DNA of 64,000 bases from Lingula anatina. Its lineage: Eukaryota; Animalia; Brachiopoda. A model generated the notes under the pieces. The model was not told the DNA's origin. It worked only from the letters and a program-made list of their open reading frames with translations, and did no database searches. Numbering within the stretch: position 1 is the first letter of the stretch; the number at the start of each line of letters is the position of its first letter. This document shows positions 2,582 through 35,123 of the stretch, one piece after another. The stretch is taken from contig CM120640.1 of assembly GCA_051362555.1 (NCBI GenBank), positions 4,402,001 to 4,466,000 on the forward strand. Direction: 5' to 3'. A program made the position numbers and the translations under genes.

Positions 2582-5500
2582 GTCTTGAGGCAGTTCATTC
2601 AGAATTGCTTAAATGAGCTGAGCAGGACAGGATTTCTGTCCATTGCATTCCCTGCCATAGGCACAGGGAACTTGGGCTTTCCAAAGGATCTTGTTGCCAA
2701 AGCCATGTTTGAAGAAATCAAGAATTTTAGTAGCGCTAATTCCCGCACAAGCCTGAAAGATGTACTCTTTGTGATTTATGAGAAAGATTTTCCACTTATT
2801 AAAGTAAGCACATATGAAATTTTACTGTATGAAATACGAATGATGTCATCTGGTGATGTACATGTATTATTACACTGTTTGAAAATAATCATGTAGCCAA
2901 CTATAATAATCACCTTGACTTTTCTACTTATTTCTACATGTATTAAGGAAGATGATGAAAAGAAATTTGCTGAATTTTTATAAATTGTTAAATTATTGCA
3001 TGGAAGTATACTTCCATGGTTATAGATGACTGAAAACTTTAATTGGGTCTTGAAGAGAAATTTATTCTTAGGACCAGACAGCAAGATAACTTTGTCCTTG
3101 CTGTTTGTAGATTTATCTATATAACCTTTGGTATGCTTGATGAGGACTGACATTTGATCGACAGTATTTTTCCCACTAGCTTGCTTGTTCATGAAGGTGA
3201 CATTTTTTAGAACATGGTATGTAATTTTCTGCAGTTATGTGAACAGTGATGGCAGATCTGTTTATCTCAGTCTGCTGTAAGTGAGTAAAAAAAATTGGAT
3301 GGGCATGCCATCAAGCCTAGAGAGGGTTGGGCAAAATTGAACTGAAAAGTCATTCATATTGCTACTATTTCTGAATTTATTTTAGGCTTTTGAGGATGAA
3401 CTTCAGCGTGTGCAAGGCAAAGGAGGGATGGGAGCAAAACCTAAAAGAAAAAGAAAGAGCAAGGCAGGAACTTCTGAAGGTGGTAGGTATATCTGCTTTT
3501 TTGAAAATGTTTCATTGAGGATTTGTTTGCTTTAATAAACAAAGAATCGTAATCTACCGTATGCACATCTTTTATTGAATGTGTTTATTGGGGATTTCTA
3601 ATTAGGTTTAGAAAAACAAAAAAAAAGTGGATTGGTAAACCCTAGTTTGATGTGGGTTGCCATGTTTTTAGCAGAGAGAGATAGCTGAATGCGCAACTTG
3701 ATGTGAGAATGCTATGTTCTTGGTTGCTTTGTTACAGGTGGCTCCCTCTATACCAACCTGACAAGCCACACTCCTGGGGGTTACCAAATGAAGATTGGCA
3801 AGATCTGTGTTCAAATCCAGAAAGATGATATTACCAAAGAAAATGTGGGAGCAATAGTTAACAGTTCAAATCCCACTCTGGACTTGTCAATGGGTAAATG
3901 TATTTTGTTTAAGCTTGTCTTGTATGAAGTTAAATATTATGATGGTTAAGGCACTGAAGTTTCTTTATTTAACAAAAAAAATTTTTTTTTAAATGAAGTA
4001 AAAAGCATTCATTAGGCCACCAAAATATATGGAATATTGTTCATGCCACGCAGCTATACTTTTTTATCTTTAAATACAGCAATGAATGTGTGCATAGAAA
4101 TGAAAGTTTCTTAACCTGTCTGAATGCTTAACACAGGTGGTGTGTCCAAGGCAATTGTTAACAGTGGAGGGAGTGCTATCCTGGATGAATGTAGAAAGAA
4201 GGGTGAGAATAAACAGCATTCATATTTTTAACATCAACTTAAATTGTAAATATTCTTGGAGGCTTGGCATTGTCAGAAAATATAAGATACATAATAATAT
4301 TGGGAAAGTGTGAAAAAAAGATTTTATTTTTTGTATGCATTTTTTCTACAGATATTTATTGATGTTTGAAATATCCATTTTCTAAGATAAAAGGCAATTT
4401 TGGAGAAAAAAAATTAAAATAACTTACATACCTGGAACTTGATTTTACATTTTAACTTTTTTTCAGTGTAAATTTTGTAGTTTACGGTAAAGTCTTGAAA
4501 ATTTCGTCGCTTAAAAATTAATTAATATTTTTAATTGTGTAAATCCGACTAATTTTTCAAAATCACCTCTCCCCGACTCCTGGGTATGACGAAATTTTCA
4601 AAAATCCGGCCTTTGGGCTTTTATCCTTAGCGACTGTTATCTTTGACCTTCCTATATGGTGGGATATTTATTACTACTTCCTAAGTCATGTTCTGGTGGT
4701 AAATAGTAATCTATTTATTAGTGCATCTCGATTAAGTTATATTTAACATACTGTACCCGAAAACATGTTGAGAATTATTTTCTCGGTAAGAAACATACCT
4801 CCTGATAGAGGAGAAGGATCAAGATAAGCCTAATTGCAACCTTGCATCATAACCTGGACGCGACATGTTAAAAAAAAATTACGCACTTGGGAACGTTTGT
4901 TTCATGCAGGGCTTTCCCCAGGATTGAGTGTCAGGCCTTCTTAAATTACCATCTGTAACTTCCTAAAAATTTACAGGGAGTTAAAATAATGATCTCCCGT
5001 TGACGATCTTCCGCAATTTAAGTTCCTTGAACTAATATGAAAACTGCATTTTTTTTATTGCTTACATCGCTAACAATCTCCCGATGAAGATGTGAAAATT
5101 GCCTGTTCGTCTAGCAAGGATCGCGAACGATCTCCCGCTGACGATCTTCCGCGAACGAAGTTCCCTAAATCCCTTGAACTAATATGAAAATTGCATTTCA
5201 TTCTTGCTTACATCGCGGACGATCTCCCAATGATGATTTTAAGCGAACAAAGTCCTGACGATAGTACGCAAACGATTATCCGCCGAAGATATGCCGTGAG
5301 CGGGGAAGTGGGGGGTTAAAAATAAAACTAAATATATATATATATATTATTTATAATATTCAAAGGGGGAGACGGATTTAAAATAATGATCTCCCGCTGA
5401 CGATCGCAAACTAAGTTCCTTGAACTAATATGAAAACTGCATTTTATTATTGCTTACATCGCGAACAATCTTCCGATGAAGATATGAAAATTGCCTTTAC

Positions 5501-8500
5501 GTCAAGCCAGGATCGCGAACGATCTCCCTCTGATATGATCTTACGCGAACAAAGTCCTGAGGATATTACGCGAACGATTCTCCGCCGAAGATATAACGTG
5601 AGCGGGGGAAGGAGGGGCGGATTAAAGATCAAATGAAAATGAATATTTTGTGTGGGGGGGGGGAGGGAGGGGGGGTTAAATAATCTCCCGCTGACGATCT
5701 TCCGCGAACAAAGTTCCCTAAATCCCTTGAACTATTATGAAAATTGCATTTCATTCTTGCTTACATCGCGAACGACCTCCCGATGATGATATGAAAATTG
5801 CCTTTTCGTCTCGCTCGGATCGCGAACGATCTCCCTCTGACGATCTTACGCGAACAAAGTCTTGACGATATTACGCGATCGATTCTCCGCTGAAGATATG
5901 CCGTGAGCGGGGGAAGGGGGGGGGTTAAAGATAAAATGAAAAATATATATTATTTATAAAATTCAAAGGGGGAGGGGGGGGGTTAAAATAATGATCTCCT
6001 GCTGACGATCTTCCACGAACGAAGTTCCCTTGAACAAATATGATAAGTGCATTTTATTCGCGCTTACATCGCGAACGATCTCCCGCTGAAGATCTGAAGA
6101 TTGCCTTTTCATCTCTCTCGAATCGCAAACGATCTCCCGCTGATGATCTTATGCGAACGGAGTCCGCTACAAATATGAAAATTATCTTCTCGTCTCGTTT
6201 GGATCGCGAACGATCTGTTGACGATATTACGCGAACGATTCTCCGCTGAAGACATGAAAATTGCCATCTCGTCCCATTCGCATTGCGAACGATCTCCATG
6301 CACGAGCCAGGTAATCGTTAAATGGTCCTAAATTGAACATGGACATGAATAGAAGTGACGGGTCCATTTCACTTCGAGATAATATCTTGATTTTTTCATT
6401 GTGTCTTCCTCATTTAGGACAGCCGCCGATAACAATAACGGCGTTACAAATGACAAAGCCGCGGCCTGTGACTTCTATTTGCCGGCTTGATAACGCACCT
6501 TAAGCCAGGTAATAGTAATGCAACTAAAGACAAAAGGCCGACGTTCCCGCAATTGAGAACGGGAATTCACATCTAAACCATCTATATTGTGAGTAACCGC
6601 TCGCAGGGGCGCACTATTGTTCCTATCTCCCATTGAGAGTGTTATCGGCAATGATATCCTGATCGTATCATTGTCTTGAATCAACTGACGCATTACCTTC
6701 ATGTTTGAGCTGGACAACGCGGCCATATTTGGTGACGAACTTTTCAAAAATTATCGATTACCTCATTTTTAAGGTCGACGAAGTTTTCAAAGGGAAAAAA
6801 ATTACGTCGGCGGAAAATCTGCCGACGAAATTTTCAAGACTTTACCGTACTCAAAACTTAATTAAATAAGTCAACTTTTAGAGAATTGTTATTTGGAGAT
6901 ATTTGGGAAAACATGAAGTTATGTTCCTGTGTCTAACCTCAAATGCATTAATTACAGGTCAAACGATGGGTGGTCTAGCTCTGACAGGAGCAGGGAAATT
7001 GAAATGCAAGTACATAATTCACTTTGATGCTCAGGTGTACTTCTATGGTAAATGGAAGGAGGCTGTCATCAAGTGCTTAGAAATGGCAGAGTCTCTAGGT
7101 CTAAAGTCTGTGGCTTTCCCTGCACTTGGAACAGGTAATGGATCAAAGCATTTGCTTTTAACTAAAACTAGAGATAAGTCTATCCTCTGTATATGTTATG
7201 AGTGCATCTGAGACGATCCATCCATCTTTAAGAAACTCTCCTTTTCTTAGAACCCCTCCTCCAGTCATATTCGTATTTAGAATATTCTGGAAAGATTCTT
7301 TCATTTCCTAATTGACACCTTGATTGGCTGTCATTTAGAACTAAGCTTATTAAACTAAGAAGTAGTACAACTATAGAGTAGCCTGCGTTTTAGTTTTGGG
7401 TGTTCTAATTTCAAGAAATTTTGACTTAAAAATACAGTATCTATCTATATATTCACAATTTTTCCTCATTGAAAAGATTGAGTAATTATAGTATATTTTT
7501 ATCATATATTGTAGGTGCACTTGGATATAATAATAACCCAGAGTCAATTGCCTCATACATGTTGGAGGGTATTGCTGACTTCTACATTAATGTTAATCCA
7601 GTTAATGTCATGCTGGTAAGGATTACTCTGTTTCAACCACATCTGCTACCTATATTTCAAAAGGTGATGAAGAACAAGCATGGGACACCATTAAAGGACA
7701 ACAGAGGTATCTTAAAAAAAGTGTGGGGTAAGTTTGATATAATGTTGTTTAAATTACTATGTGTTTTACAAGGCAGTAATGTCACATTAATTTGATCAGA
7801 AAGTGCATGTAAATGAAGGAGATCTGAAAATATTTTTAAAATATCTTTTCACATGTGATGTCGAAAAAAATTTAATATATTTGTCATCATACTATGAACC
7901 ATTTTCATTCATTGTAACACTTTCGATATTCTTTCTTTCTTGAAGATACCGTTCGAAGGCATTCATGGAAAGGGAGTGAAGTTTTGGAAAGGGAGAAAAA
8001 AGTGTTGGTTCTTGACATCTATGCAAAGGACAAGAAATCTTCTGATGCTGCAGTGCAGGGTATAGAGGACATAGTGAGAGATGAAATGGAGGACAGAATG
8101 ATAACAGATGATGAAATAGCAAGGTTCTCACCAGAACAGGTATGTTTTAAAACAGTTTCTCTAGATCTGTGGCGGAATTAGGGGGGTGTCAGGGGGATCC
8201 TGACACCACAACCACCACCACCCCCTTCGATTTCTGAGAAAAATCACACCAATGATCCTCTCTTAAAGTTAGAGTTTTAACCAGCTAAATCATAGTTAGA
8301 ACCCTACCAAATGGCATGATTCATTCGCCCTCCAAAATACCAAAAATTTTCAGGGCCCTTTAGCGACCCCATAACTCACGCCAAGGGGGGTGGGAGGTTC
8401 AGCTAATTCACATCCGCAATCCCCAGACACTTCAGCATCAACAGCTTTTGTTGATGCTAAAATGATTGAAATGAAACTACTTAAAAGTGTGCATGTGTGA

Positions 8501-10756
8501 GAGAAAGAGGAGGAGGGGGAGGTAAAATGGGGAATATGAATAATAAAAATATGTGCACAAAAATACATGTACTTTCCATATTGCCATAGGTGGATAGACT
8601 GAGGGATCTGGAAAAGAAACTGGATGTCCAGATGAACATAGAGATTCTAGGTGTCAATAGAGTCAACCGCATTCGTATACAGGGTCACAAACAAGATGTG
8701 GCCAAAGTAGTGGAAGAGTACCATAAAATCCTGAGAGAGTTGAAGGACCATGACTTGAAAATTGCAGAAGCTGAGGCATGTGCCAAGGAAGTTATGTGGT
8801 AATTGTTCTTTTGTGTTTTTTCCCATATTTGATAATTAACTCTAACTAGATTGTTATGCCTTTGAAATAGAAACTTTTTATATTTTCCATTTTATATTCT
8901 TTGTGTTTTAAAAAACGTATTTTGAATGGAATTATTTCTGTTGTACTCAAGCAAACAAACTTTAAGAATCAAATTTCCTTGAATAAGACTTAAAAGATTA
9001 TTCTCACCATTTAATATTTTGTTTTTGCCAAAGGATGTTTATTGATGGTGGAAAAAATCATCAGTATGACATGATGCTGAATGCTGATATTGAGAAAGCA
9101 TATCAAGCCAACAAAAGAGGGAGATACAAGTACAAGATCGAAGCTGGACAAACTTTAGAAATCAACTTTGCTAAGATGGAAGAAATGGTGTTGGCAGATA
9201 CAACTAGTGGCATTAAAGTTCTGCGAAAGAATTTGAAAGGTATCTTAAAACTGCTTCCATGTATTTATGATTTTTTTTTCTAAGAAAAAATTTCAGAATG
9301 AAATTAATGTTTCCCTTTCACTTTTCTCCTTTTTAAAATTGATTTTGAGGTTTTTGCAAACAATGGTCTAAATTTCCCCAGAAGACATAACTGCTTCTTT
9401 AATTTTATGTTTTCAGAAATGCAAAACCTCCCTGACGATTGGAGCCCCATGCCTAAGGGTAAAAGTCAGGTTTCAATACCAATTGCACAGTCCACACAGG
9501 AATACAAAATGGTCAAGACAAAGTTAATGCATACTGCTCAAGGTTGCATTAATCAAATTCTTAAGGTAATGTGCATGCGTAACTGCATGGACTTTCTTGC
9601 ATACATCTAAGACTAAATATATGCATACTGTGTATATGGAGTCCTAGAATATATAGTGTACAACCCCTCAATTTAGTTTAATTTTCTTTGAAATATAAAT
9701 TTGTTATGCGTTTGAAATACTATTTCTTTTAACTATCCTAAAGATAATTTCAGTGTCATCCCTTCAAAGAAGTATTAGATCAAATATTTTTAAAATGTGC
9801 AAGCAATGCATTTCACTGTACCTTTTGAGTGCTGAAAAGTTTGAAGAGCACGTTTCAAGTTGAACTGTTCATTGTATATTAGATTGAAAGGATTCAGAAC
9901 CCCACACTGTACAAGTCGTATATGGTAAAGAAAGAGGACATGGAGACACGCAACCCTGGCTTACAAAATGTGAGAGAACTTTTCCATGGAACCAGTGAAG
10001 AGACTCTACCAAGCATAAATAACACTGGTTTCAATAGAAGTTACTGTGGTAAAAATGGTAAGGCTTTGTAGGTGTTACATAGATCACTTTAGTTGTACTC
10101 CACATAACTTGGCATTTTGAGTGCTGCATTGAGACCAAAAAAAATCTGTTTTTGCAAAAATTTGTTTGGCTATGTTGATACTTATGTTTTAGCTATAATA
10201 CCAATTAAATAAAATATGGGGTGGGATGGGGCCAGTTAAAAAAAACTCCCTGATCTGAGTCAAAACTTAATTCATGTGCAATATGTTTTGTGAGGTCTAC
10301 CAAGTTAGGGAAAAAATACATGTATATCAACTTTTTTTCAGAAAACTAACCTCTCCTTTGAAATTGCTGGCTACAGGCTTGGCTACCACCAAAATGTACC
10401 AAAATGTACATGTACCTCTAGAAAAAAAGAAGTATGATATGTTCACAGTTTAAGTTCATAGTATGGTTCACATTTCAGCCACCATGTATGGTAGAGGGGT
10501 GTATTTCGCAACCCAGTCTGTTTATGCTGCAAGGGACCAGTATGCCAGACCAAACATCAATGGAGAGTGTCACATCTACCTGGCTAAAGTTCTGACTGGA
10601 GACTATACAGCAGGGAACCAGTCTCTGATTGTGCCACCTCTAAAACAAGGGAGCCAGCACTATGATTCTGTGGTTGATGATCCAAACAACCCTGGGATAT
10701 TTGTGATCTTTTCCGACAATCAAGCGTATCCGGAGTATTTGATAACATTTAATTGA
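2582..10756 (+). CDS. PARP14: PARP14-like macro-PARP mono-ADP-ribosyltransferase, gene A (3' part; 5' exons lie upstream of the window)
   Basis: GT-AG exons 2582-2803, 3386-3482, 3738-3893, 4137-4202, 6958-7134, 7515-7727, 7946-8139, 8590-8798, 9034-9239, 9417-9565, 9883-10057, 10479-10756 join in frame. Domains: Macro2 C-half (SIAFPAIGTGNLGFP), Macro3 (DDITKE..AIVNS..GGVSKAI..FPALGTG), KH-like segment, WWE (WMF..YDM..IEKAY..INF..MEE), ART ([55 protein letters not shown]) with an H-Y-I triad. Orthology to PARP14 versus PARP15 is not resolved. Confidence 0.92.
4485..6847. mobile_element. Non-autonomous TA-targeting DNA transposon (Tc1/mariner superfamily-like) in a gene A intron
   Basis: TIR CGGTAAAGTCTTGAAAATTTCGTCG at 4485 and its reverse complement ending at 6847. 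TA duplication at 4483-84 and 6848-49. Subterminal GACGAA(A/C/G)TTTTCAA repeats. The paralogous gene B intron (~32670-32690) is an empty site. Confidence 0.85.
4976..6297. repeat. Complex CpG-rich tandem repeat inside the TA-flanked element
   Basis: Recurring subunits CGCGAACGATCTCCCGCTGACGATCTT and ATATGAAAATTGC are arranged in about four higher-order units of ~290-400 bp separated by G-runs. Confidence 0.85.
8168..8400. mobile_element. hAT-like MITE fragment, same family as 62725-62935
   Basis: Shares C(A/T)GTGGCGGA(A/T)TTAGGGG..GTCAGGGGGATCCTGAC(C)nTTCGATTTCTGA with the 62.7-kb copy. Confidence 0.55.
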
Positions 10757-10980
10757 TTCCTGATTGGAAAAGTTAAGACCAGTTGGAACTGTTGGGTGAA
10801 CTGATGTTTAAGTAACTGAGGATTCGAGGAACCAAACTTTCAGTATCTGTAGAGCACATTTTCGTGGTTAAACATTTAATCAATTACAATGAATATGTAT
10901 CACACACATAGTGGAATAATTTCAGTCAGAATTAATTTTCTCACATTATTTACAAATGCATTCTGTGTATAAGAGACTAA

Positions 10981-11343
10981 TACCTCATTCACACCAGTAC
11001 TTTTAACCGCAGTCAAGGCCTGACCTGGGTCCTATCACAGTTAACTTTTCTAATGTGAACGGATGACGTAGCCCTGACCGTGGTCGAAATTAACCCAGAT
11101 CGGGGAGGTGGGTATAATCGGAGTAAACTCCTGACCGCGGTCAAGATCAGATGTCTACATATGAAGCGCACGCGCACATGTGTATGTCATTTGAGCTCCT
11201 GCCATGTTGCACAATGCTAGTAAGAGCGCATGCTTGACAGGATGCTGAGATTCTACCGCTACTGATCGCTGCCAGTGTCAGTGTGAACACGGTTTGGACA
11301 CGGTATGGTTGACTGCGGTTAACGTTCTAGTGTGAATGGCCTA
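10981..11343. mobile_element. PIF/Harbinger-type MITE in the probable 3' UTR of gene A
   Basis: Imperfect ~35-bp TIRs (CATTCACACCAGTACTTTTAACCGCAGTCAA / TTGACTGCGGTTAACGTTCTAGTGTGAATG) flanked by TAA at 10978-80 and 11344-46. Confidence 0.75.
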
Positions 11344-11484
11344 TAAAACTTGAGGTTTTTACTTAATACCCAATAATGAATAAGAAATCATTATGCCTAT
11401 ATTCTTTGAAATGATTGTATTTAATTTTATAGAATTAGTGCGTGTATTAGATATACCTTTGCTTCAATCTTGATTGTTTCTATT

Positions 11485-11488
<4 letters not shown>

Positions 11489-11535
<47 letters not shown>
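11489..11535. repeat. (TA)n microsatellite
   Basis: Uninterrupted run of TA dinucleotides. Confidence 0.95.
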
Positions 11536-11538
<3 letters not shown>

Positions 11539-13141: not shown

Positions 13142-13322
13142 TTCCTAGAACCCCCAATAATTGTAAAATCTTACATTTTCACAAAGACAAAAGGCAGTAA
13201 TCGCTTAATTAGCCTAAACTGCCTTTTTATTTTTCAATAATTCAACGAATGGAGCGGTTCCTGGAGAAAAGACTATGGTGCGTAATTTGTCTTTGGATAA
13301 AACAGACTTAAAGTAAAATAGA

Positions 13323-13353
<31 letters not shown>

Positions 13354-13860
13354 ACATGGTGCGTAATCTGTAAAAGAACAAAGTGAAGTATACAGACAGT
13401 CAAAAACATCACAAAGCAAAGTTTCACACAAAGATTGACGTGAAAGACTGACTATAGATAGCCCTATTCTAAGTTACAAAGCAGACCAATTTTAGTGGGC
13501 CTATTTATTTCCTTATTTTTCCACAATATTTCGAATAAAATGTTTCACTTTTGGATTCCGAGAGGGTGGTACACTAGAAAATCGTATTACAGAAAACTTT
13601 TAAAACTAGAATTGTGTTTTGGTGTCACATTTCAAAGGGAATCTACATGTATCATACTATGCTGTGGGGGAGTATCGCTATGGGGACGTAAAGATGCGGG
13701 GATGTATCGATTCAGGAGACTATCAGTGCGGGGGATTAGCCCATACATCTACTAAAGATAAGTGCAGATATCATGTTGGTTCAAGTTGTATAATTTTGTT
13801 CGTGGTGTTATTTTTGGAAAGGGAATCACCTGCCTCCGTCAACGTCACCGGAAATGTTGT
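13142..13860 (+). promoter_or_regulatory. Putative promoter of gene B with GAS, ISRE-like, kB-like and ETS motifs
   Basis: TTCCTAGAA 13142-50 (TTC-N3-GAA); GTTTCACTTTT 13542-52; GGGAATCTAC 13637-46, GGGGATTAGCCC 13731-42, GGGAATCACC 13821-30; ACGTCA followed by ACCGGAAAT 13842-55. All lie in a CpG-richer stretch just upstream of ATG 13969. Confidence 0.45.
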
Positions 13861-22900: not shown

Positions 22901-25900
22901 TCATGCAGTTCTGCAGGGCATACTGATGACAAGAAAAGTGACAGAGGGAATCCAGAGCAACCACAAAGCACAGCTTTTAGGGAATACGGAGAAAACAGTC
23001 AAGCCCAGACACAACCAGCCACAACACAAGACATTGAGGAAGAATTTGGAAGAAAAAGATCGACAGGGCATACAAATATTGGTCACCTGCATCCAAACAC
23101 CAACCTTACTGATAGCAACTACATTTTGACCAATGAGGATCCTGTCCAGAGCTCTGGTCACACACATCACCACGAATACAGTCAGCCACCTCCCATTGCC
23201 CGTTCTGAACCCCATATTCAGCAGGATCCTGGTCACTCTGCAGGTGGTCATGCTGGTCAAATTCATCAGTATGGAGGGCCGCAAGAAAAGATGACCATTC
23301 CAGGAGATGTACGTGATCCACAGTCAGGGCAATCTTCCCCATGGCTTCTTCACTCTCCTCCTAGTGGTGATCAAACCAAGCAGGTGCCCCATATGACACA
23401 AAGTATACATATACCAAAGATGAGAGAGTCAGCAGATAGAGGGAGACAAAGTGATTTACCCCCACAAGCTGAACAAGGTAAATTGATTCAGATGTTATCA
23501 AAGACCATGCCCTCCATGGCACAGCTTGGTTCTCAGCTTGGCCTTACAGAAGAACAAATGAACCAAGAAGGCATGGCAGCTATGTTGCTGCACCTAGCTA
23601 ATGAAAATGCAAAGCTTAAAGCACAGCAACTACCAGATTGTGATGAAGATACAAAGAAGTCTGTTGCAGAAGAGGAATATCTGCCCCATCGCCAGCATGA
23701 GAAAGGTTAGCATTGATTTTGCAAAAGAAGGAGGTCAGCAACAGATTGGCACTGAAATAGTTTTTATAGCCATGTACAGGTTTTAGAAATTGTTTTTAAA
23801 ATGGAGTCGAACCAAAGATGTTACAATGTATAATGACAGTGCCTTAGTACATGTGCCTTTCCCATTGGTTAACAGCCATTTCTTACTAACAAAACCTTAA
23901 AAATTTTGTGGTGCAAAATTAACTGAGTTTTGGCCTTTTTTGGGGACAACTGTTCAGTCATCAGACAATTATTCACTTAGAAATATATAAAGGGTTACTT
24001 TCTGGAGTCTTGAAGGCTAACTGCAGGTGCGTACGGAAGCCATCTTCCAGGGTCTTTCGGAAAAGGGTCAGAATTTTTCAAGTGTACATTGACAGGCATG
24101 TTTTTTTTCTGTCGGAAGACAGATTAAAATGGAAGATGGATCAACAAAAATAATTTGGAAGACTGTCAGATAATATTTCTGGATTTGCCCCTGAACTGAT
24201 TTGAAAGTGTTCATTAGCAGCATGTAGGATACAAGCTAGATAGTTTAGCAGCATTTTGTTGTGATACGTCTCATTTATATTATATTTATAGTTGTAAGTA
24301 AAATCTCAGAATAAATCAATTCAGATATTTTGAGATTAAAAAACAATTGGCATATTTTCAGTGGTAGAGGAAAGAAGTACAAACGCCGAGTTAGCAGATC
24401 CTGGCAGAAGTATTTTAGTTGAAGTCACTATGTCTGGACCTGCAGAATGTTTTGAGGAAGAAGAGCTGAAATTCTTGTTTGAAAATGCCAAACGTACTGG
24501 AGGGGGAGATATTGACAAGTTTTATTTTTACCGTGATAAAAAGAAACTTATCATTAGATATGAGAAGAATAAAGGTATGTTTTAGTGAAGTAAAAACTGA
24601 CAGCACTTATTTACAATGAATGAGGATTGATCGTTAATGCCAAGAATAATAAACTTCAAATTTATGAAAAATCAATGACAATTAAAGTACTTGAAAGACT
24701 AGAGTTATTATATTGAAATTTTTGTATGAAGATTAACACGTTTTTCAGAAACCCTTTATGGATTTCATCTAATTTTCACCTAGACATATTCACTACTGAA
24801 ATCTGTCAGCAATCCAATAACCAGTTTAATTCATTTTAACATGTGAGTTAGTGTTTACTTATACTTTTAAGTATCCATATCATTTTTTTAATTTTATTTA
24901 AGATGATAAGAATGGTAAAATTGTTATCCAATTATATAAATTTCAGATGCACAAGGTGTTTTGAAAAATGGATCTTTTGACTATAAAGGGGTAAAATTTA
25001 CCCCCATATTGTTCCAGTCCCCAAAACCAATGCAGCAGCATCAAAAGCATGTCCAAGAGCATTCCCACAGTGCAACTGCTGCAGGCTTGGAGCATTCTGG
25101 AGGCCCCCCTTCAGAAGCAATAAGCACCCTGAAAGAAGAAGTGTCTCAATCCCAAACACAAGATCCAGTGGTACATCCTCAGTGGCTTTCAGAACAAGAT
25201 GAACAAAAATCAGATGAACACATAGGTACAATAGAAGTCAGAGGTTTCAAGGAAACTACGACTGATGAGGTTATAAGATATTTCTTCCAGAGCAAGAAAA
25301 GATCTGGAGGTGGTCAAATCAAAAGTATGGAGATCAAGAGAAAAGAAAATAAAGCCTGTATCACCTTTGAGGATGCAAAAGGTATGATCTTCATTTTCAT
25401 AAAACCTGGAGACACTATAAAGACAGAGACCTTAAAAGAAATGAGAAACGTTTGCATAAAAGAATAGATTGTGAATCTTGCCATGTGATGTTGACATTTT
25501 ACTAGTTATTTTTTGCACATTGTGCTAGAAAAGTTGTTAATGATGGTTTGTTGTTCCAGTTGCATCCCGAATAATACAAAGAGGCACCTTGACATTGGAA
25601 GACGCACCCCTGCAGATCTGTGAGTTACTTGGCCCCCAAAAACCTGTCAATGTGAAGATGCCATTACAACCCAACAAACTACTTTTGATGGGCCTGTTGC
25701 CAACAACCACTTCAGACTGCTTGAGGTTTTTTGTAGAGTACATCAGTGAGCAGGACACATTTGATATTGTGTATGGACCACAACCAGGTGTCATACTGGT
25801 GACATTCCAGGAGAAGATAGGCAAGTGATCCTATCTGATTTCTTTCCTTGAATTGGTATGACTGTGTGTCATCTTGTATGTTTGTATTGGTATCATCAGC

Positions 25901-26922
25901 ATGTATATTGCAGGGGTAGTTGTGGAATATCCAAAACTGAAAATAATTCTCAATAATGATATGTGTGACATACTGTATATCCTTGCTGTATAATTTGTGC
26001 ATGTGATTGTAAACCTTGAATGCTGTTCATATGTAAAAATTCTTTTCATTGTAAAAAAGTCAATAGTTGATTTTTTTTAAGTGACACCTGGTGTAATTTG
26101 GGGCATTTCAAGATGTATTATTATTCTTATTATTATTATTATAGATTTTTAATTGTCTGGGGGTCAGACAGTATTGTTTGAAAATTAAGCACATCAGTGA
26201 ATCTACCACAGAACTTTGCATATTATATAGTGTTTGTTGTGTCTTAGATGTATATATATTGGGAATGCATGTACATGTAAGTAATATTATCAAAAACAAT
26301 TATGGTAGCAATCAAATAGAACTAGACAATATGTATGTTTTCAGATTTTGGTATTGTCCAAAAGAGGATCCAGAAAAAGAAAAACAAACAAACATCAGAA
26401 TTTGGTAATGTCGATGCTGCACAGGTCTACTTTCCAAGTGCTGTACAGGTCCATGGCCTACCTCCTTCAACCACAAAAGATGCCCTAGAAATCCACCTGG
26501 AAGCTCAGTGTGACAGTGATGCCCATGCAGAAGTTATTCAACTAAATGTTGATAAGGGATATGGTGTGGTTGAGTTCTCTGATTACAGAGGTATTCAGAT
26601 CTATGTTTTTCTTATAAACAAGTTTTTTTTAAAGTCATTAACTCTCTTTTCTACTGAATGAATTATAGTATCAATATATTGTGTTTAATTTAAGGTGTGC
26701 ACCATAGCTTTCACTTGCTTTTTTACACCAAAGTTATGCTGGAGCTAAGGTGTTTTTCAATTAGTCAAAATGTTTTTTAATGTAAAACACCATTTTAAGA
26801 TAAATTGATGAAGAATAAGCAACAAAAAGTACATTCATACTTGCATGACATTACTTTTGTAAAGCTGTACAAAATATAAATATATGCATAATAATTAATG
26901 GAAAGCTTCAGTATTTGTATGA

Positions 26923-26980
<58 letters not shown>

Positions 26981-29900
26981 ATATTGGGCCATTATTGACA
27001 AAGGAACACAGAATAGCTGGACAAGTAATCACTTTACATGCATATTATCCCTTTTTTGGAGAGACCTCTCATCTGCCAACCTCAGGACAAGTTATAGTGA
27101 AAGTCAACCCAGCTTTTGTGAAGTATGTTCAAAAACATCCTCAAGTTTGTGGGAGGAAGTTTGCAGATGTTCTTGAGAAAGCACATGCCCAAGCCCAGTT
27201 TACTAATGATGGAGAACTCCGTCTCTCTTGCACCATCACAGATGATGCCCCGGATGCCTTTGCGCTGATCCAAACATGGGAACAAGAGGCAAGATTGAAA
27301 GTCCAGGATTTTTTTCAGCATTACTCACATGAGGTTTTCCAAATTCAACCGGATGCATGGAATAACACTGTGGAAAGAATCGCAGAGAAGCGCTTAGTTG
27401 AATCATGTGGTATTATTTTGGATATGGACCCTCACACTATGAAAATTACCCTTACTGGTGAAAATGAAATGGTAATGCTGCTGTCAAATCAAGTGAAAGC
27501 CATTCATGATGCAGAAATGAAAGCAATAGAAAGGGAGAGGGAGAAAATAAAAGATAACATATCTTTGGATGAATACAAGCTAAGACTGTTGCTTGCTTTG
27601 AACTTTTTGAACAATATGGAGGAGCAGTTTCATGACCTATCCACCAAAATTGATCTTAAAAAGGGCATTATATCCTTTGAAGGGGTTCAAGCAGATGTTA
27701 GGAATGCTAAGTTGCAAATGTATGAGAGAATTACAACATTAGTTGAAGACGAGGTTTCTCTGTCTCATTTGATGATTGACTTTTTGAAATCTCAAGCATG
27801 TCAAGATTATCTTGATCAGTGCCTTAAGTCAAGTCAAGTAGTTGCTGTGTGGACCTTTGGCGATAAAGAAATATCACTGTACGCACAGTCAAGAGACCAG
27901 TTAGAAACTGCAAATGCTATCATTTTGAGGGAGATTCAAGAAAAGACCTGTGAGTTAAATGCAGAGTCTCAGCCATTGATGAAGTCAGAAAAGTGGCAGA
28001 AGTTGTGTGACAGTCTAAATAAAGACTATCCTGGATTGTTGAAGATTTCTTCAAGTGCAGCACATTACACCATTGTGACCCTGAAAAAAGAGATGCAAGG
28101 TATTCTTGGCAGAATAAACAGGTTTTTGGAAGAAAATACCATATTGACTGTATTTGAGCCAATGGAATATGGAAGAGTAAGCTACATGAAAAACTATATG
28201 ATTGAAGGGCTGAACAATATCACTGCTAGTCTAAAACCATCTGTCATTTCAGTTGTAGCAGACAACACCAAATCAAAGCCAGGCATTATGGTTAAAGGCA
28301 CAAAAGATGGTCTGAAGGAAATTATGCCAACTATCAAGGAGTTATCCAGTTCAGTCCAGAAATGTTCATATCCTGTGGGAAAACCAGGCATGCCAAAGTT
28401 CTTCAGTGAAAAGAAAGGGCAGTCTCTGCTTGAGGGTGTTGCCATGCGTACAAAAACCATCATTGAAGTTAACCAGCCTGAGGAGACAACACCTCATGTC
28501 ATTACAGGGAAACGTGATCACCAGAAGGCAGAGGAAACCAGGGTTGTGAGGAGTCAAGTGGTTCATAGCAGCGGAAAGAAATTCTTGGTGTGTAAAGGAG
28601 ATATGAGCAAATACCCAGTTGATGTTGTGGTCAATGCAGCCAATGACCGTTTGGAGCATACAGGTGGTCTGGCAGGTGCTCTGTTAAAAGCAGGTGAGAA
28701 GGTTACATTACTTAATATTTTTTAAAGATATGGGTCTTGAAAAGGGCTGTTTTTAAATAGAGACAATTTTGATGAAAAGAGATCAATTTGACTGGTTCAC
28801 AGATCCATAAGGATGCCCCCCCCCCCCCCCCCCACTCCCCCACTGCCTTATCTCGGTTACTGACAGTGAGTGATATGATTTTAAACAGAATGTCACCAAC
28901 ACTAGTGGGCTTGATTTGGTCTTAAAGTGCAATTTAAGAACACAAATAGTCTTACATGATCTTAAAACATGAGTAAGACCATTTCTAGTCTGACAGCCAA
29001 TTAAGTTGTCTCCCCTTACACATTCTCTATTGTGAGCAGAGGTGTCCTCTATTGTGAGGGGAGGTATCCCCTATTGTGAGGGGAGGAAACTGCTTGACCA
29101 CTTAAGTAGATGTTAGATCATTTTTTATCTTAAAAGCAGATTCAGTCCATTTTAAGACTACTGCTGTAACGATTGTGAACTTAAATTGCACTTTAAGACC
29201 AAATCTAGCCCACTAGTGCAAGGTGATGTACGTTGCTATGTCAATGGACACCTGACTAATTTTGTATCATATGGTACGTGTCAGTCATGGAAAGAAGGCT
29301 GACAGGGGCTAGGATATCATTCAACACTCTGCACTAATGGCCCAATCAGATTGGACAAATTTTTATTCCCTCATTATTACTAGTATTCTGTTTTATTCAT
29401 GTTCCAGGAGGAAAAACAATCCAGGAAGAATCAAAGAAATTCCTTGAGAGTCATGAATGGTCAAGGCTCCTGGAAGGTCAGATAGCTTGGACTGGTCCAG
29501 GGAAACTACCTTGTAAACTCATTATCCATGGAGTTGTACCTATGTGGGAGGGAGACAAAGCAGGAAAAGAGAGACTGCTCAAGGCGGTAGTCTACAAGGC
29601 TTTCGAAAAGGCTAACCAAGATGGCTTCAAATCCATTGCCTTTCCAGCCATTAGTTCTGGCACCTTTGGTTATCCTGTGGACAAAAGTACCAGGGCCATA
29701 GTTGAGGCTGCTGATATGAGTTGTAGGGAAAATCCAGGCTCCAGTCTCAAAGAAATTCACTTTGTTGATGCATTTGATTCTACTGTTGATCTGTTCGGTA
29801 AGGCTGTCCACAGTGTTCTGGGGGTCACTGGTCAGTTTGGACAGCCCAAGACCAGATACAGGGGATCACCAACATTAAGGGAAGGTAAATAGGTTGATTA

Positions 29901-32900
29901 GTTTCAGCAAATTTTGTATTTAATGATCATTTTGTTAGTGATATGCAGGCCCATAACCAGCAATTTCAATAGGGGGAGGGTTCTTTTTCTGAAAAAGTGA
30001 ACCTTTTACCATGAAATATTCATGTACCTAGGTAAAATTTTACCCAGAAGGGACTTTTTCCCCGAAACCTGGCAACAAGCCTGGTTATGAATATTCCCCC
30101 ATGCAATGTAAAGATTGAATTCTCCACTACTTTCCCTACGATATGCTCATTCTGAGAATTTAGTAATAACCAGGTGGATTGCACTGTTTAACAAGCCAAA
30201 ACTATTCATTTAGTTGTCATGATCACAGCCAATCTTAATGTTACATATTATTTTAACAATTTATATTGATTTTACAAGTCTATGAGTGATTATATTTAGA
30301 TATGAGAGGGGATGACATGGTGCAGTGGCAAGACCCGGATGATATAGATACAGATGATGAGCTCCAGGCGGCAGGAGCATGGTGTTCTCGCAGAACAACA
30401 CAGAATACAGATTTCCAGCCAGGTCCTTCACCAGACTCTGTGGAGACAGCTGAAGGCATTACTGTGACTCTTGTAAAAGGGCAGCTAGCACAACAGCAGG
30501 TACAATTAATTACTATACTGATTCACAGGGAAACAATTTTTTTAATTTACTAGCTCCATATTTTTATACATTGAAATTGTATAACAAATTGCTTTAAAAG
30601 CTTTACTATTTCTGTGATTTTTATGCCTATATCAAGTACATGCTTTTCAGCAACAGCAACAGTTAATACATATCTTATGCAGCTAATTATAATTAGAGAC
30701 CAGAATTTAAGAAAATAAACTGGAGTATATATGCTATTCAGTGTTTGCCTCTTAGGAAAAATAGTTGCTGGACCGAAAGTCCAGCCATCTTGAAAAGTAG
30801 CTGGACTGAATGTCTGCCGGGTGGGAAACTTTTCAGCCCGTTCTGAAAGTTGTCAGCCCTGGGCAGATGGTCCAGCCTTAATTTCTAACACTGATGCTAT
30901 TACTTAACACCTGGGTGCATGGTATTTAGTTGCCATATTTTTATTGCAGTTATTACCTCCACCAAAGAGGTTATGTTTTCTCCCCTGTTTGTCTGTCTGT
31001 CTTTCTGTCTGTCTGTCTTCAACATAACTCAAAAAGTTATGGACAGATTTTGATGAAAATTTCAGGAACTGTCAGAAGTGGGCCAAAGTACTGATAATTA
31101 GTTTTTGGTGGTGATCCAGATCAATATCAATCAATAATCAATAATAGTAAAAAATTGCTGCCTTGGCGGAGGTCTGCATTCTCGGAGTGCTTTAATTTCT
31201 TGTTTCACATTAGACTCCAACAAGGCAGCAAAGTCTCCATCCAATGTCGTTTCACCCCTAAATTTTTTATATCTTTTATTATTGATTTTATTATTATTAC
31301 CTGTTGTCCGGGCATATCACTTTCTTTTGTTTATATAGTTTTCTTTTTTTGGTATATAATTTTCTGCAGTTATGTGAACAGTGATGGCAGATCTGTTTAT
31401 CTCAGTCTGCTCTGAGTGAGTAACAAAATTGGATGGTCATGCCTTCAAGCCTAGTGAGGGTTAGGCAAATCTGCCAACACAGAGGATCAATACATAAATG
31501 TTATTCTAAGAAATGAAAAGTTTTACATATTACTATTATTTCTGAATATATTTTAGGCCTTTGAGGATGAACTTCAGGGTGTGCAAGGCAAAGGAGGGAT
31601 GGGAGCAAAACCTAAAAGAAAAAGAAAGAGCAAGGCAGGAACTTCTGAAGGTGGTAGGTATCTGCTTTTTGAAAATATTTCATTGAAGATTTGGTTGCTT
31701 TTATGATCAGATAAAAAAAGTGTTATGATGTACCTACATCTTTTGTTGAGTGTGTTATGTAAGAAGGAGGAGCTTTTATTAGGGAAACAAATGGAAAAAG
31801 ACAAGAACAGGTGATTGGTAAACCATAGATTAATGTTCACTTTCATGTTCTTGGCAGAGAGTGATAGCTGAATCCACAATTTGAAGTGGAAATGCTATGG
31901 TCTTGGTTGTTTTGTTACAGATGGCTCCCTCTATACCAACCTGACAAGCCAAACTCCTGGCAGTTACCAAATGAAGATTGGAAAGATCTGTGTTCAAATC
32001 CAAAAAGATGATATTACCAAAGAAGATGTGGGAGCAATAGTTAACAGTACAAATCCCACTCTGGACTTGTCAGTGGGTAAATGTATTTTGTTTTAGCCTG
32101 TCTAGTTGAAGTCAGATTATAATATCATTGAAGTTTCTTGAATTAACAAAAAAAAAAAAAAAAAAGGAAAAAACATTCATTAGGCACCAACATATATGAA
32201 ATATTGGCCATGCCTCACAGCTATGCTTTTTTATCTTTAAATAGGGCAATAAATGTGTTTATCTGGCAATAAATGTGCGCATAGAAATGAAAGTGGCTTA
32301 ATCTAACTGAATGCTAAACACTTTCTGTGCTTTCACCTGCAGGTGGAGTGTCCAAGGCAATTGTTAACAGTGGAGGGAGTGCTATCCTGGATGAATGTAG
32401 AAAGAAAGGTGAGAATAAGTAGCATTCACTTTTTTAACATCAACTTAAATTGCAAATATACTTGCAGAATTGGCATTGTCAGAAAACATAAGATACATAA
32501 TAATAATATTGGGTAAGTGTGAAAAATAGATTTTATTTTTTGTAAGCATTTTTTCTCCAGATATTTATTGAGGTTTGAAATAACAATTTCTAAGATAAAA
32601 AGGCAATTTTGGAGAAAAAAACTTACATACCTGGAACTTGATTTAACATTTTAACTTTTTTACAGTGTAAATTTCGTAGTCTGCTCCAAACTTCTTTAAT
32701 AGATAAGTCAAATTTTAGAGAGTTGTTTTTTGGAGATAGTTGAGAAAACATGAAGTTATGTTCCTGTGTCTAACGTCAAATGCATTACAGGTCAAACACA
32801 GAGTGGTCTAGCTCTGACAGGAGCAGGGAAACTGAAATGCAATCACATAATTCACTTTGATGCTCTAGTGTACTTCCATGGTAAATGGAAGGAGGCTGTT

Positions 32901-35123
32901 ATCAAGTGCCTAGAAATGGCAGAGTCTCTAGGTGTAAAGTCTGTGGCTTTCCCTGCACTTGGAACAGGTAATGGAAGCATTTGCTTTTAACTAACACTAG
33001 AAATAAGTCTATCCTCTGTATATGTTATGAATGCAGTTATTTGACATGAATCCATCTAAGAGGATTCATGCATCTTAAAGGAACTCTCCTTTTCTTATAC
33101 CCCCCCCCCCCAGTCATATTTGTATTTAGAATATTCTGGAAAGCTTCTTTTATTTCCTAATTGATACCTTAAAGACAAAGAACCCCATTTTAAAATGCAA
33201 GTTTATCTGAAGTGTACTTTTTTCTTCTCAGCCTTCATGGTTGCTTGCAAAGTCAATATAATAATACATTGTAAAGGGTCGCGATACACAGGGCCGTAGC
33301 CTCCGGGGGGGGGCAGGGGGGCAGCTGCCCCCCTGGGATTTGAGGTGCAAAAAAAAATAATCGCAAAGGTAAAAAAAATAATTGCAAAGTTGGTATCAAT
33401 TCTGTGAGAAAATGCACTCATGTTAAAATGCACCAGAATGCAGTATTATACATACAGTTTTTAAAAATTTTCCACACCGTGGGAGGGGGACACCCCCTCC
33501 CCCCTCGGGGGCTTCGCCCCCTTGTGTCCGCTTACTGCTCCCCTTGGCATTTTGCTCAGGCTACGGCCCTGATACAACATCCTGTGCCATTTCCTTGTGT
33601 AAAAATTAGGCTGTGAAGGTCAGGACTCAGGAAGGCTGTGTTGTTCTAAATGATCATCTAGAACTAAGCTTATTAAACTAAAAAGGAATAAGGCTTCATT
33701 CACATGGAATGTCTATTTTCTAAAAATCTATTTTCTATTCGCGCTGTCTTAGGATCATGGTCTGTGCCCTGAATATCCCGCCGCGTAATTACTAGCAGCG
33801 CGAGTCAGTTACTTATAGTAACTTATAGTAACTGGCTCGCGCTGCCAGTAATTACGCCGCGGGATATTCAGGGCACAGACCGTGATCATAAGACATACCG
33901 CGAATAGAAAATAGAATTTAGAAAATAGACATTGCATGTGAATGAAGCCTAATGACATTGAATTCATGTGCAATGATTTGTGAGTAGGCAAAAATTGCAA
34001 TTAACCCCAGGAATATTCATTTTGGCAGGGGTTCTGTGAAAAAGCCCTTTCAAATACTTGTTTCACAACTTTCCTGGTATATAAAATATATAACCTTACC
34101 TGTAAATGCTAATATGAATTAAATGTAATATACCTGATAAACAAATATGGACATAGGTTGTTTTAGTCACATGGGGCTTTATGTATAAAAAAGCCTGAAG
34201 AATTGAAAATGTTTTTCCATAACTTTTCTTTGTGTGAGATCAATAACTCAATCTTTTCAATAGGCAAAAGTTCTCCAACCTTCAGATGCATAGCTTAACA
34301 ATCACAAAATGTATTTCTATATAGCATTTGGGGTGCTTTTGCTGCATAGAATACAACTATAGAGTAACCTGCTTTTTAGTTTTGTTGCTACCACTCAGTA
34401 AGGGTGTTCTAATTTGAAGAAATATTGACTTAAAATAGACTATCTGTAAAATTCACAATTTTTCCTCATTGAAAAGATTGAGTAATTACAGTATATTTTA
34501 TTACATATTGTAGGTGCACTTGGATTTAATAATAACCCTGAGTCAATTGCCTCAGACATGTTGGAAGGTATTGCTGACTTCTACATTAATGTTAATCCAA
34601 TTAATGTCATGCTGGTAAGGATTACTTTGTTTCAACCACATCTGCTACCTATATTCCATAAGGTTATGGAGAACAAGCATGGAACACCATTAAAAGACAA
34701 CAGAGGTATCTTTAAAAAAGTGTGGGGTAAGTTTGATATAATGTTGTTTATATTATACAGTGTGTTTTATAAGGCAGTAATGTCACATTAATTTGATCAG
34801 AAATGTACACTGAGGAGATCTGAAAATATTTTTAATATATTCGTTCACAATTTTTGTGATGTCAAAAAATTTAATACATTTGCCATCAAACTAGAAGAAC
34901 TTTTTTTCATTTATTGTAACATTTTTGATTTTCTTCATATCTTTAAGATACCTTTCTAATGCATTCATGGAAAGGGAGTGAGGTTTTGGAAAGGGAGAAA
35001 AAAGTGTTGGTTCTTGACATTTATGCAAAGGACAAGAAATCTTCTGATGCTGCCGTGCAAGGTATAGAGGACATAGTGAGAGATGAAATGGAGGACAGGG
35101 GCTGTATTCTTGAAACTTTGTAA
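13969..35123 (+). CDS. PARP14/PARP9-like macro-PARP paralog, gene B: RRM-like domains + repeat exon + KH region + Macro1 + Macro3, lacking the Macro2 core, WWE and ART (~2266 aa; could be a recent pseudogene)
   Basis: Exons 13969-14149, 21318-21547, 21746-23705, 24362-24574, 24947-25381, 25560-25820, 26345-26590, 26981-28693, 29408-29884, 30300-30499, 31557-31653, 31921-32076, 32343-32408, 32791-32967, 34514-34726, 34948-35123 total 6801 nt with compatible phases and no internal stop seen. PARP14-type RRM motifs: HFQQESVGGGDV, LFENAKRTGGGDI, FFQSKKRSGGGQI. Macro1: GDMSKYPVDVVVNAANDRLEHTGGLAGAL..FPAISSGTFGYP. The last six exons are close paralogs of gene A exons. Confidence 0.8.
15166..17498 (-). 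mobile_element. Tc1-like (DD34E) transposon, defective, interrupted and partly inverted
   Basis: TIRs CACACACTGGACAATAGAA(A/G)TGTCACCCC with TA TSDs. Minus-strand transposase pieces read MTRYRILSNDNRRQVINLKR.. and ..HQDDNAPCH..WPVQSPGANIIENVW. Same family as 61205-62590. Confidence 0.92.
15763..16841. mobile_element. CAC-terminal non-autonomous element with a 4-bp TSD (Chapaev-like), rearranged by an inversion
   Basis: The 25-bp terminus TGCACCTCTATATTGGGTTTGGGTG occurs at 15818-15842 and 16817-16841. Each copy abuts a duplicated TTTG of the Tc1 sequence. Internal GAACATACGTTAC occurs four times. Confidence 0.6.
22001..22805 (+). repeat. Coding tandem repeat, 3 x 270 bp (90 aa), in exon 3 of gene B
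   Basis: CAGGCT anchors at 22011, 22281 and 22551. Unit: MYISGYGIDAESHMEQESGKTYISGGHNKDKIQQSHLSQVLHPHSLLARRTEGGSHAHEQQVMLS..SEEF.LKPGHSPP. Confidence 0.95.
26925..26977. repeat. (TTA)n microsatellite abutting a splice acceptor
   Basis: About 17 TTA units directly before CAG|26981. Confidence 0.95.
28900..29218. mobile_element. CACTA-terminal MITE (CMC group) with a 3-bp TSD
   Basis: ~39-bp TIRs CACTAGTGGGCT(T/A)GATTTGGTCTTAAAGTGCAATTTAAG, CAA on both flanks, and a short internal CTATTGTGAG repeat. Confidence 0.8.
30950..31197 (+). mobile_element. Short Helentron-associated (HINE/DINE-1-like) element
   Basis: 5' TTATTACCTCCACCAAAGAGGTTAT hairpin, (GTCT)n microsatellite, 3' subTIR CCTTGGCGGAGGT followed by the hairpin GCATTC-TCG-GAGTGC. 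Confidence 0.75.
33289..33571. mobile_element. GC-rich hAT-like MITE
   Basis: TIRs CAGGGCCGTAGCC / GGCTACGGCCCTG with ATACA on both flanks. It lies in a block absent from the paralogous gene A intron (~7320). Confidence 0.7.
33692..33949. mobile_element. Nearly fully palindromic PIF/Harbinger-type MITE
   Basis: GGCTTCATTCACATG..CATGTGAATGAAGCC termini, TAA TSDs, arms complementary almost to the centre. A half copy lies at ~20995-21097. Confidence 0.85.

What the first reader, a model, noticed from the sequence alone, without database searches (positions are those of the whole stretch)
2582..35123. Tandem macro-PARP pair: an ART-bearing 'writer' next to a transferase-less paralog that keeps a hydrolase-type Macro1
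Seen: gene A ends in WWE + ART with H-Y-I. Its close paralog gene B has a stop-free ~2266-aa spliced frame with RRM-like domains, a KH region, Macro1 and Macro3, and no WWE or ART exons anywhere before TMEM214. B's Macro1 retains NAAN, H-x-GGL and the G-T-F-G-Y loop, although HAVGP is changed to HGVVP. Established: Macro1 of mammalian PARP14 and PARP9 is an ADP-ribosyl hydrolase, Macro2/3 are readers, and these are interferon-responsive antiviral genes. Inference: B may be a newly arisen eraser/reader-only regulator or decoy of A, functionally convergent on PARP9, or simply a recently killed duplicate.
Basis: partly seen in the sequence, partly recalled or inferred. Interest (0 to 1): 0.8.

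Follow-up and report, generated by a model that had tools for sequence, protein, structure and literature searches.

The report
Truncated young PARP14 duplicate in Lingula
A brachiopod carries two side-by-side copies of a PARP14-like immune gene, and the second has lost its transferase end and one ADP-ribose-reading domain, but it is likely a recently crippled, barely expressed duplicate rather than a new PARP9-like eraser.

Summary
The anatomy is confirmed. Gene A ends in WWE-ART (H-Y-I). Gene B is an open 2266-codon, 16-exon frame (RRM-KH-Macro1-Macro3) that lacks 153 Macro2 residues and breaks mid-exon at 35098; no WWE/ART follows. The named homologues are Lingula anatina proteins. A RefSeq model from a different haplotype (XP_023932274.1) has the same two losses, so misassembly is unlikely. 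A and B diverged about 12% at neutral sites under purifying selection (dN/dS 0.29), so B was constrained for most of its history, and the geometry suggests the losses came later. The eraser reading is weak. B keeps the Asn, Gly and Phe catalytic markers, but its Macro1 departs from the family consensus more than A's does (sign-flip p=0.01), including G1790V (G in 116 of 119 homologues; polymorphic in B) and I1832T. In four RNA runs every read at seven Macro1 diagnostic sites was A-type (38-58 reads per site); it is not shown that those animals carry B. Best reading: a recently crippled duplicate (0.55). A functional transferase-less reader or decoy remains open (0.25), because the frame is intact and B alleles differ by only 4 of 1307 residues. 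A dedicated eraser gets 0.12.

The parts
2582..10756 (+). Gene A, 3' part (12 exons): end of Macro2, Macro3, KH7-8, WWE, ART with H-Y-I; the 5' part lies upstream of the window
   Evidence: 679 of 713 residues identical to RefSeq XP_023932230.1 (P0002)
8097..10756 (+). The part of A with no counterpart in B (rest of the KH7 exon, KH8, WWE, ART)
13969..14149 (+). Gene B exon 1 (predicted), RRM-like
   Evidence: phase fit; exons 1-2 hit 10 of 119 homologues weakly (best E 3e-5); no Pfam hit; not covered by RNA lays
21318..26590 (+). Gene B exons 2-7: a 654-aa low-complexity exon with a 3 x 270-nt repeat (21999-22803), then RRM-like domains
26981..28693 (+). Gene B exon 8: KH region and start of Macro1 (D1716, NAAN, H-x-GGL)
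   Evidence: 100% match to P0001
29408..29884 (+). Gene B exon 9: rest of Macro1 with G1763E (29455), G1790V (codon 29536-29538) and I1832T (29662)
30300..30499 (+). Gene B exon 10: linker and the first residues of Macro2
30500..31556 (+). Intron holding the in-frame (phase 0 to phase 0) loss of the Macro2 exons; homology to A resumes near 31318 (A about 3174); repeat-rich
31557..35098 (+). Gene B exons 11-16, paralogous to A 3386-8096 (94.7% nt in exons, 89% in introns): Macro3 and part of KH7
35099..35261 (+). Foreign sequence after the break: read-through stop at 35121-35123; alternative splice from a donor after 35061 to an acceptor at 35229, as in the RefSeq model
35351..37792 (.). High-copy repeat element with 14-nt inverted arms and an internal 145-nt tandem array (36338-37632); a non-autonomous transposon by inference
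41271..48800 (+). TMEM214 gene downstream of B (approximate ends read from the sequence)
   Evidence: Pfam PF10151 on two exons

Best explanation
Gene B is a tandem copy of a PARP14-like gene that lacks most of Macro2 and all of KH8, WWE and ART, and it is likely a recently crippled, barely expressed duplicate rather than a dedicated eraser. Shown: the anatomy, about 12% neutral divergence from A, dN/dS 0.29, presence in several haplotypes, and B-side departures from consensus in Macro1. Inferred order of events: (1) full-length tandem duplication upstream of TMEM214; (2) both copies held by purifying selection for most of the time since; (3) constraint on B relaxed, so Macro1 gathered changes at conserved positions and a deletion between repeat-rich introns removed Macro2 in frame; (4) an insertion into exon 16 with loss of everything 3' of it removed KH8-WWE-ART. 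The frame is still open because step 4 is recent. The order of steps 3 and 4 is unknown. A remains the predicted writer, reader and eraser in one chain. Any B protein would be a low-level RNA- and ADP-ribose-binding fragment with weakened hydrolase activity.
For: Geometry: a simple tandem duplication that ends inside a gene truncates the upstream copy, but here the downstream copy is truncated. This points to secondary loss (inference). The break is mid-exon into unrelated sequence next to a high-copy repeat, and no remnant of A 8097-13968 lies between the break and TMEM214. Macro1: of 15 A/B differences, 11 favour A's residue among 119 homologues and 4 favour B's (sign-flip p=0.010; 0.014 and 0.015 in 45 invertebrate-named and 74 other homologues; HMM score 228 vs 213 bits). 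The KH region is balanced (5 vs 4) and Macro3 is 3 vs 1. G1790V is present in the window and in P0001 but absent from a B-type contig in DNA run X2, so a substitution at a 116/119-conserved glycine segregates in B. RNA: A-type reads were 42/42, 44/44, 42/42, 55/55, 58/58, 38/38 and 40/40 at seven Macro1 sites in four runs (amino-acid identity of the sites), which puts B's share below about 5-7%. Lingula duplicates genes 2-4 times faster than other lophotrochozoans (PMC4595640), and tandem PARP14 clusters are known (PMC13224862).
Against: The 6.8-kb frame has no stop or frameshift, against about 86 expected if B had been neutral since duplication. Decay can therefore occupy only the last 3.5% or so of B's branch, yet two large deletions and a skewed Macro1 must be fitted in or just before it. 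dN/dS is 0.29 (95% interval 0.16-0.53). Two B haplotypes differ at 4 of 1307 residues, against about 15 expected if neutral at the 0.5% nucleotide distance seen in run X2 (p=0.0007; the distance is borrowed from a different pair and those two haplotypes share G1790V, so the test is soft). B is present in four samples from three studies. The Macro2 loss keeps frame (about 1 in 3 by chance). All four catalytic markers of PMC10221186 are kept. In RNA run X12, 4 of 7 reads carried B's bases at 35054 and 35060, and runs X12 and X19 had some depth beyond the break. The RNA animals have no matched DNA and may lack B; no immune-challenged sample is known among them.
Confidence: 0.55

Rival explanations
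1. B is a functional transferase-less regulator that works as a reader, scaffold or decoy. RRM and KH domains would bind RNA, Macro3 (and a Macro1 shifted from cutting to binding) would hold A-modified targets, and without KH8-WWE-ART it would compete with A without writing marks.
For: Open frame and dN/dS 0.29. Few amino-acid differences between B alleles (4 of 1307 vs 11 of 595 between A alleles outside the WWE region, Fisher p=0.001). Presence in four samples. Changes are concentrated in Macro1 while the KH region is balanced. Loss of Macro1 activity recurs in mammalian PARP14 (PMC10221186). A loop-2 Ile-to-Ala change raised ADP-ribose binding with normal hydrolysis in coronavirus Mac1 (PMC10802294 abstract).
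Against: No B-type read at seven Macro1 sites. Macro2, one of the two readers, is deleted and leaves an orphan strand. The purifying signal is also explained by B's earlier full-length life. Low allele diversity is also explained by a recent common ancestor.
Confidence: 0.25
2. B is a dedicated eraser convergent on PARP9: its Macro1 would remove mono-ADP-ribose written by A.
For: D1716, N1730, G1737-G1738 and G1831-T-F1833 are present. Thr is an accepted loop-2 residue, and a coral PARP14 Macro1 is active (PMC10221186). Best structural relatives by sequence are PARP14 and PARP9 macrodomains. One B allele keeps the VGP glycine.
Against: Macro1 is the domain moving away from consensus, the opposite of what selection for an eraser predicts. 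A already has a consensus Macro1. PARP9 keeps an inactive ART and binds DTX3L through a KH1-KH2-ART region (PMC13224862), which B cannot copy. No B-type reads at Macro1.
Confidence: 0.12
3. B is not a paralogue but a deeply diverged deletion allele of the A locus, placed in tandem by the assembler, or it is otherwise an assembly product.
For: The two RefSeq models lie on different contigs (411,601 and 407,724 bases). RNA animals show only A-type reads. A's alleles are unusually diverse. Contig depth in X2 (about 100-140 for B-specific contigs, about 200 for shared ones) fits either model. No contig bridging 35098 was displayed.
Against: A-B divergence (dS 0.127, introns 0.118) is about 7 times the reported 1.6% heterozygosity (PMC4595640). 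The window has no N. Both losses recur in P0001. In run X2 an A/B-shared contig ends exactly at 35098, as expected at a branch, and B-type contigs extend to the 37803-38328 flank. Four samples hold 0.63-0.77 of B's sampled words.
Confidence: 0.08

Closest known systems
PARP14 (human; PARP14-like macroPARPs of invertebrates; Lingula XP_023932230.1 = A-like, XP_023932274.1 = B)
   Same: A has the Macro1-2-3, KH8, WWE, ART layout. B shares the RRM, KH, Macro1 and Macro3 parts and is 91% identical to the A-like protein over exon 8. B is already in RefSeq as a partial PARP14-like model.
   Different: B lacks 153 residues of Macro2 and all of KH8, WWE and ART.
PARP9 (vertebrate partial duplicate of PARP14)
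   Same: Arose from PARP14 by partial duplication, has two macrodomains including Macro1, and has no transferase activity (PMC10221186, PMC13224862).
   Different: PARP9 keeps Macro1+Macro2, two KH domains and an inactive ART, has no RRMs, binds DTX3L, and is about 500 My old and conserved. B has Macro1+Macro3, no ART fold, is young, and its Macro1 is departing from consensus.
PARP15 and mammalian PARP14s with dead Macro1 (cow, polar bear, little brown bat)
   Same: Show that macroPARP copies repeatedly shed or inactivate domains (PMC10221186).
   Different: They keep an active ART; B lost it.
Other annotated PARP14-like proteins without ART (P0010, P0026, P0061, P0095, P0106, P0110, P0116)
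   Same: 7 of the 119 other homologues retrieved have macrodomains but no ART by HMM.
   Different: All keep three or more macrodomains. One is labelled partial and the rest may be split models or isoforms; this was not checked.

Membership tests
PARP14-like macroPARP (gene A) | Three tandem macrodomains, WWE and ART | tested here: met
   Window shows the end of Macro2, Macro3, WWE and ART; the A-like RefSeq protein has 3 Macro + WWE + PARP
PARP14-like macroPARP (gene A) | Mono-ART triad H-Y-hydrophobic | tested here: met
   H and Y match 108 and 111 of 112; Ile placed by recalled alignment
PARP14-like macroPARP (gene B) | N-terminal RRM and KH arrays | tested here: met
   PF23085, PF23222, PF23248, PF23251
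PARP14-like macroPARP (gene B) | Three macrodomains plus WWE-ART | tested here: not met
   Two macrodomains, no WWE or ART; a derived fragment, not a full member
PARP9 | Macro1+Macro2 followed by an inactive ART | tested here: not met
   Macro1+Macro3 and no ART
PARP9 | Heterodimer with DTX3L | not tested
   No DTX3L orthologue was sought; the ART and KH8 surfaces named in PMC13224862 are absent from B
Hydrolase-type Macro1 | Asn/Ser and Gly flanking loop 1; hydrophobic plus aromatic residue in loop 2 (PMC10221186) | tested here: met
   N1730, G1737-G1738, T1832-F1833; Thr occurs in 3 of 119 homologues
Hydrolase-type Macro1 | Conserved VGP motif (PMC7925111; role untested there) | tested here: not met
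   V1790 in the window and P0001, G in 116 of 119 homologues; one B allele keeps G
Hydrolase-type Macro1 | Measured de-MARylation | not testable with these tools
   needs an assay
Unprocessed pseudogene | Stops or frameshifts and neutral evolution | tested here: not met
   Open frame, dN/dS 0.29; only the structural losses are disabling
Unprocessed pseudogene | No functional transcript | tested here: inconclusive
   0 B-type reads at seven Macro1 sites; 4 of 7 B-type reads near the break in one run; carriers not genotyped

The most novel reading that the evidence does not exclude
B is a selected, inducible, transferase-less PARP14 offshoot: an RNA-binding RRM-KH scaffold with a Macro1 being retuned from cutting to binding and a Macro3 reader, which damps or redirects its neighbour A. 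It would be an invertebrate case of a PARP9-like regulator caught at birth, reached by deleting the ART instead of inactivating it, with hydrolase-site alleles (G or V at 1790) still segregating.
Probability: 0.3. Interest if true: 0.62.

Novelty: new variant of a known kind. Interest (0 to 1): 0.3.

Why it matters
If B is decaying, it is one more birth-and-death event in a fast-duplicating immune gene family, and RefSeq already holds a partial model; the added value is a dated, polarised case and a natural variant of the untested VGP glycine. If B is functional, it would show how non-catalytic regulators such as PARP9 start from PARP14. The A/B pair (15 Macro1 differences) would then be a ready test of which residues tune a macrodomain between hydrolase and reader.

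Tried and rejected
No whole genome is held for this window, so a genome-wide search for an orphan B 3' end could not be run; only the window was searched. A matching right-hand terminal repeat for the sequence that starts at 35099 was not found: 2 matches, both on the + strand. No RNA holder was listed by the run index, which is no evidence on expression. The B-specific splice joints were not among the rows displayed (15 of 98; 15 of 67), so their absence is not shown. Only 40 of 486 and 40 of 398 variant rows were displayed. Sites 29424, 29451, 29470 and 31578 showed B's base in some RNA reads. I set them aside as likely A-allele polymorphisms because neighbouring diagnostic sites in the same runs were all A-type. 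Site 32025 gave 59 of 60 A-type. Site 34669 is not diagnostic, because P0001 has A's residue there. The first polarisation (Macro1 9 vs 0) used ad hoc thresholds and one poorly covered column, so the threshold-free test is the one relied on; both were run after seeing the motif change. An ISRE-like scan near exon 1 gave one hit, inside the exon: uninformative. Literature searches: Lingula + PARP14 gave 0 papers; G97 + Mac1 + hydrolysis 0; truncated or dominant-negative PARP14 paralogues nothing relevant in 12 of 75 listed; PARP14 + oyster + dsRNA one Aplysia paper, listing only; PMC5413906 does not mention VGP. Earlier scan findings: none. No structure prediction was run: it would not resolve a single substitution. 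No supplements were read; the alignments in the supplements of PMC10221186 may include these Lingula proteins.

Full report
Observation. I rebuilt both genes from splice sites. Gene A's 12 exons in the window (2582-10756) give 713 residues and a stop, with Pfam Macro, KH_PARP14_8, WWE and PARP matches. The triad His and Tyr are those of 108 and 111 of 112 ART-bearing homologues; the Ile is placed from recalled alignment. Gene B's 16 exons (13969-35123) give 2266 residues and one stop. tblastn of A and an ART HMM on six frames find no WWE or ART outside A, and TMEM214 follows. Exons 1-4 of B are predicted from phase and weak homology and have no RNA support.

Identity. B's exon 8 is 100% identical to P0001, a Lingula anatina PARP14-like partial model (XP_023932274.1), and 91% identical to P0002 (XP_023932230.1), which has Macro1-2-3, KH8, WWE and ART. 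P0001 differs from window B at 4 of 1307 residues, so it is another haplotype. It has the same in-frame Macro2 skip and no WWE/ART, and it ends through a donor after 35061 spliced to an acceptor at 35229 inside the foreign sequence. B lacks P0002 residues 710-862.

Is B real? Four samples from three studies hold 0.63-0.77 of the sampled words of 29300-35400 (one may be the window's source). In DNA run X2 the eight displayed contigs match B with 20 differences in 4039 bases, from exon 2 to the flank at 37803-38328. A contig of about double depth ends exactly at 35098, as expected where A and B part (inferred, since no bridging contig was displayed). The window has no N. A-B divergence is 0.127 at synonymous sites and 0.118 in introns, about seven times the 1.6% heterozygosity reported for Lingula (PMC4595640, passages). 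A deep-allele reading stays possible because the two RefSeq models lie on different contigs.

History. Over 286 shared codons there are 24 nonsynonymous and 22 synonymous differences, dN/dS 0.29 (Fisher p=6e-5; interval 0.16-0.53). Neutrality over B's whole branch predicts 41-52 nonsynonymous differences and about 86 stops or frameshifts in 6.8 kb; none is seen. So B was constrained for nearly all of its history. A simple tandem duplication ending inside a gene truncates the upstream copy, whereas here the downstream copy is truncated. The break is mid-exon, into unrelated sequence beside a high-copy repeat, and nothing of A 8097-13968 remains before TMEM214. I infer a full-length duplicate that was truncated later. 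The purifying signal therefore does not show that the truncated form is selected.

Macro1. The markers used to predict hydrolase activity (Asn/Ser and Gly at loop 1, hydrophobic plus aromatic in loop 2; PMC10221186, parts 2 and 3 of 7 read) are present in B: N1730, G1737-G1738, T1832-F1833. But among 119 homologues B departs at conserved columns: G1763E (G in 103, E in 0), G1790V (G 116, V 1), I1832T (I 83, T 3) and T1843A (T 50, A 4). Of 15 differences, 11 favour A and 4 favour B (sign-flip p=0.010; similar in 45 invertebrate-named and 74 other homologues). The KH region is balanced at 5 vs 4 and Macro3 is 3 vs 1. The homologues are related and distant and the test is post hoc. The VGP glycine may bind a water at the beta-phosphate and was untested as of PMC7925111 (passages). 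A loop-2 Ile-to-Ala change left hydrolysis normal and raised binding in viral Mac1 (PMC10802294, abstract). So loss of activity is not shown. G1790V is polymorphic: a 345-base B-type contig in X2 with two differences carries the glycine codon. Human PARP14 and PARP9 Macro1 are hydrolases (PMC10499325, passages; PMC13224862, passages and sections 6 and 9).

Expression. Six RNA runs from three studies were laid, 6-26% of each read. At 96% likeness, depth on B's exons 2-7 was near zero apart from 1-2x on part of exon 3. At 90% likeness, reads at seven Macro1 sites where both B alleles differ from P0002 were all A-type: 42/42, 44/44, 42/42, 55/55, 58/58, 38/38 and 40/40. B's share is below about 5-7%. 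Against this, in X12 4 of 7 reads had B's bases at 35054 and 35060, and depth at 35122-35310 was 1.3 in X12, 4.1 in X19 and 0 in X13 and X14. That may be a trace of B transcripts, B-like A alleles or repeat reads. The B-specific joints were not among the rows displayed. These animals carry A alleles unlike the window's (sites 32370 and 34710-34716) and have no matched DNA, so they may lack B. The result is 'not detected', not 'silent'.

Evidence for continued function. The frame is open. The Macro2 loss keeps frame. The two B haplotypes differ at 4 of 1307 residues against about 15 expected if neutral at X2's distance (p=0.0007). That distance is from another pair, and the two haplotypes share G1790V, so a recent common ancestor explains it too.

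Mechanism and verdict. Most likely (0.55), B is a recently crippled duplicate, and A remains the predicted writer, reader and eraser. A transferase-less reader or decoy gets 0.25, a PARP9-like eraser 0.12, and an allele or assembly product 0.08. B is not a PARP9 member: PARP9 keeps Macro1+Macro2 and an inactive ART and binds DTX3L through its KH-ART region. Partial and tandem duplications of PARP14 are known, and 7 of 119 other homologues also lack an ART as annotated. I found no paper naming both Lingula and PARP14. The Macro1+Macro3, ART-less layout is a new variant of a known kind, with interest 0.3.

Noticed in passing
window 9034-9565 (A residues 445-562) vs P0002: Window A and the RefSeq A-like protein differ at 23 of 118 residues in the WWE and the start of the ART, against 11 of 595 elsewhere (Fisher p=9e-12). 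This suggests a mosaic allele, conversion from another paralogue, or diversifying selection on WWE.
   Followed up: partly
window 7100-7720 (A residues 229-306): P0002 carries B's residue at four sites (L229V, Y254D, V269I, L306F): either a gene-conversion tract between A and B or changes private to window A.
   Followed up: partly
window 21999-22803: Three 270-nt (90-aa) repeats at 93% identity inside a 654-aa Ser/Gln/Gly/His-rich exon with no match in 119 homologues.
   Followed up: partly
window 25820-25821: GC-AG intron donor in gene B; the exon join agrees with P0001.
   Followed up: yes
window 35096-35116: The foreign sequence starts right after a CAG and looks like the left terminal repeat of a DNA transposon (Harbinger-like, recalled); no right end was found in the window.
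   Followed up: partly
window 15164-17500, 38726-39117, 61203-62592: Degenerate Tc1/mariner-like copies at 88-96% identity, with DDE_3 Pfam hits; two lie in B's 7-kb first intron.
   Followed up: partly
window 577-1295 vs 40264-40980: An inverted 87% match of a high-copy, transcribed repeat lying in A's intron and just upstream of TMEM214.
   Followed up: no
window 4482-6849 and 33171-34351: Copy-specific intron insertions: 2.4 kb in A with a 303-nt tandem array, and 1.2 kb in B.
   Followed up: no
window 50200-60350: Downstream genes: a minus-strand TatD-like gene (about 50.2-53.1 kb; label recalled, untested), a RAE1-like gene from 54326 (label recalled; no Pfam hit on the one exon tried), and a minus-strand regucalcin/SMP-30 gene (Pfam SGL).
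   Followed up: partly
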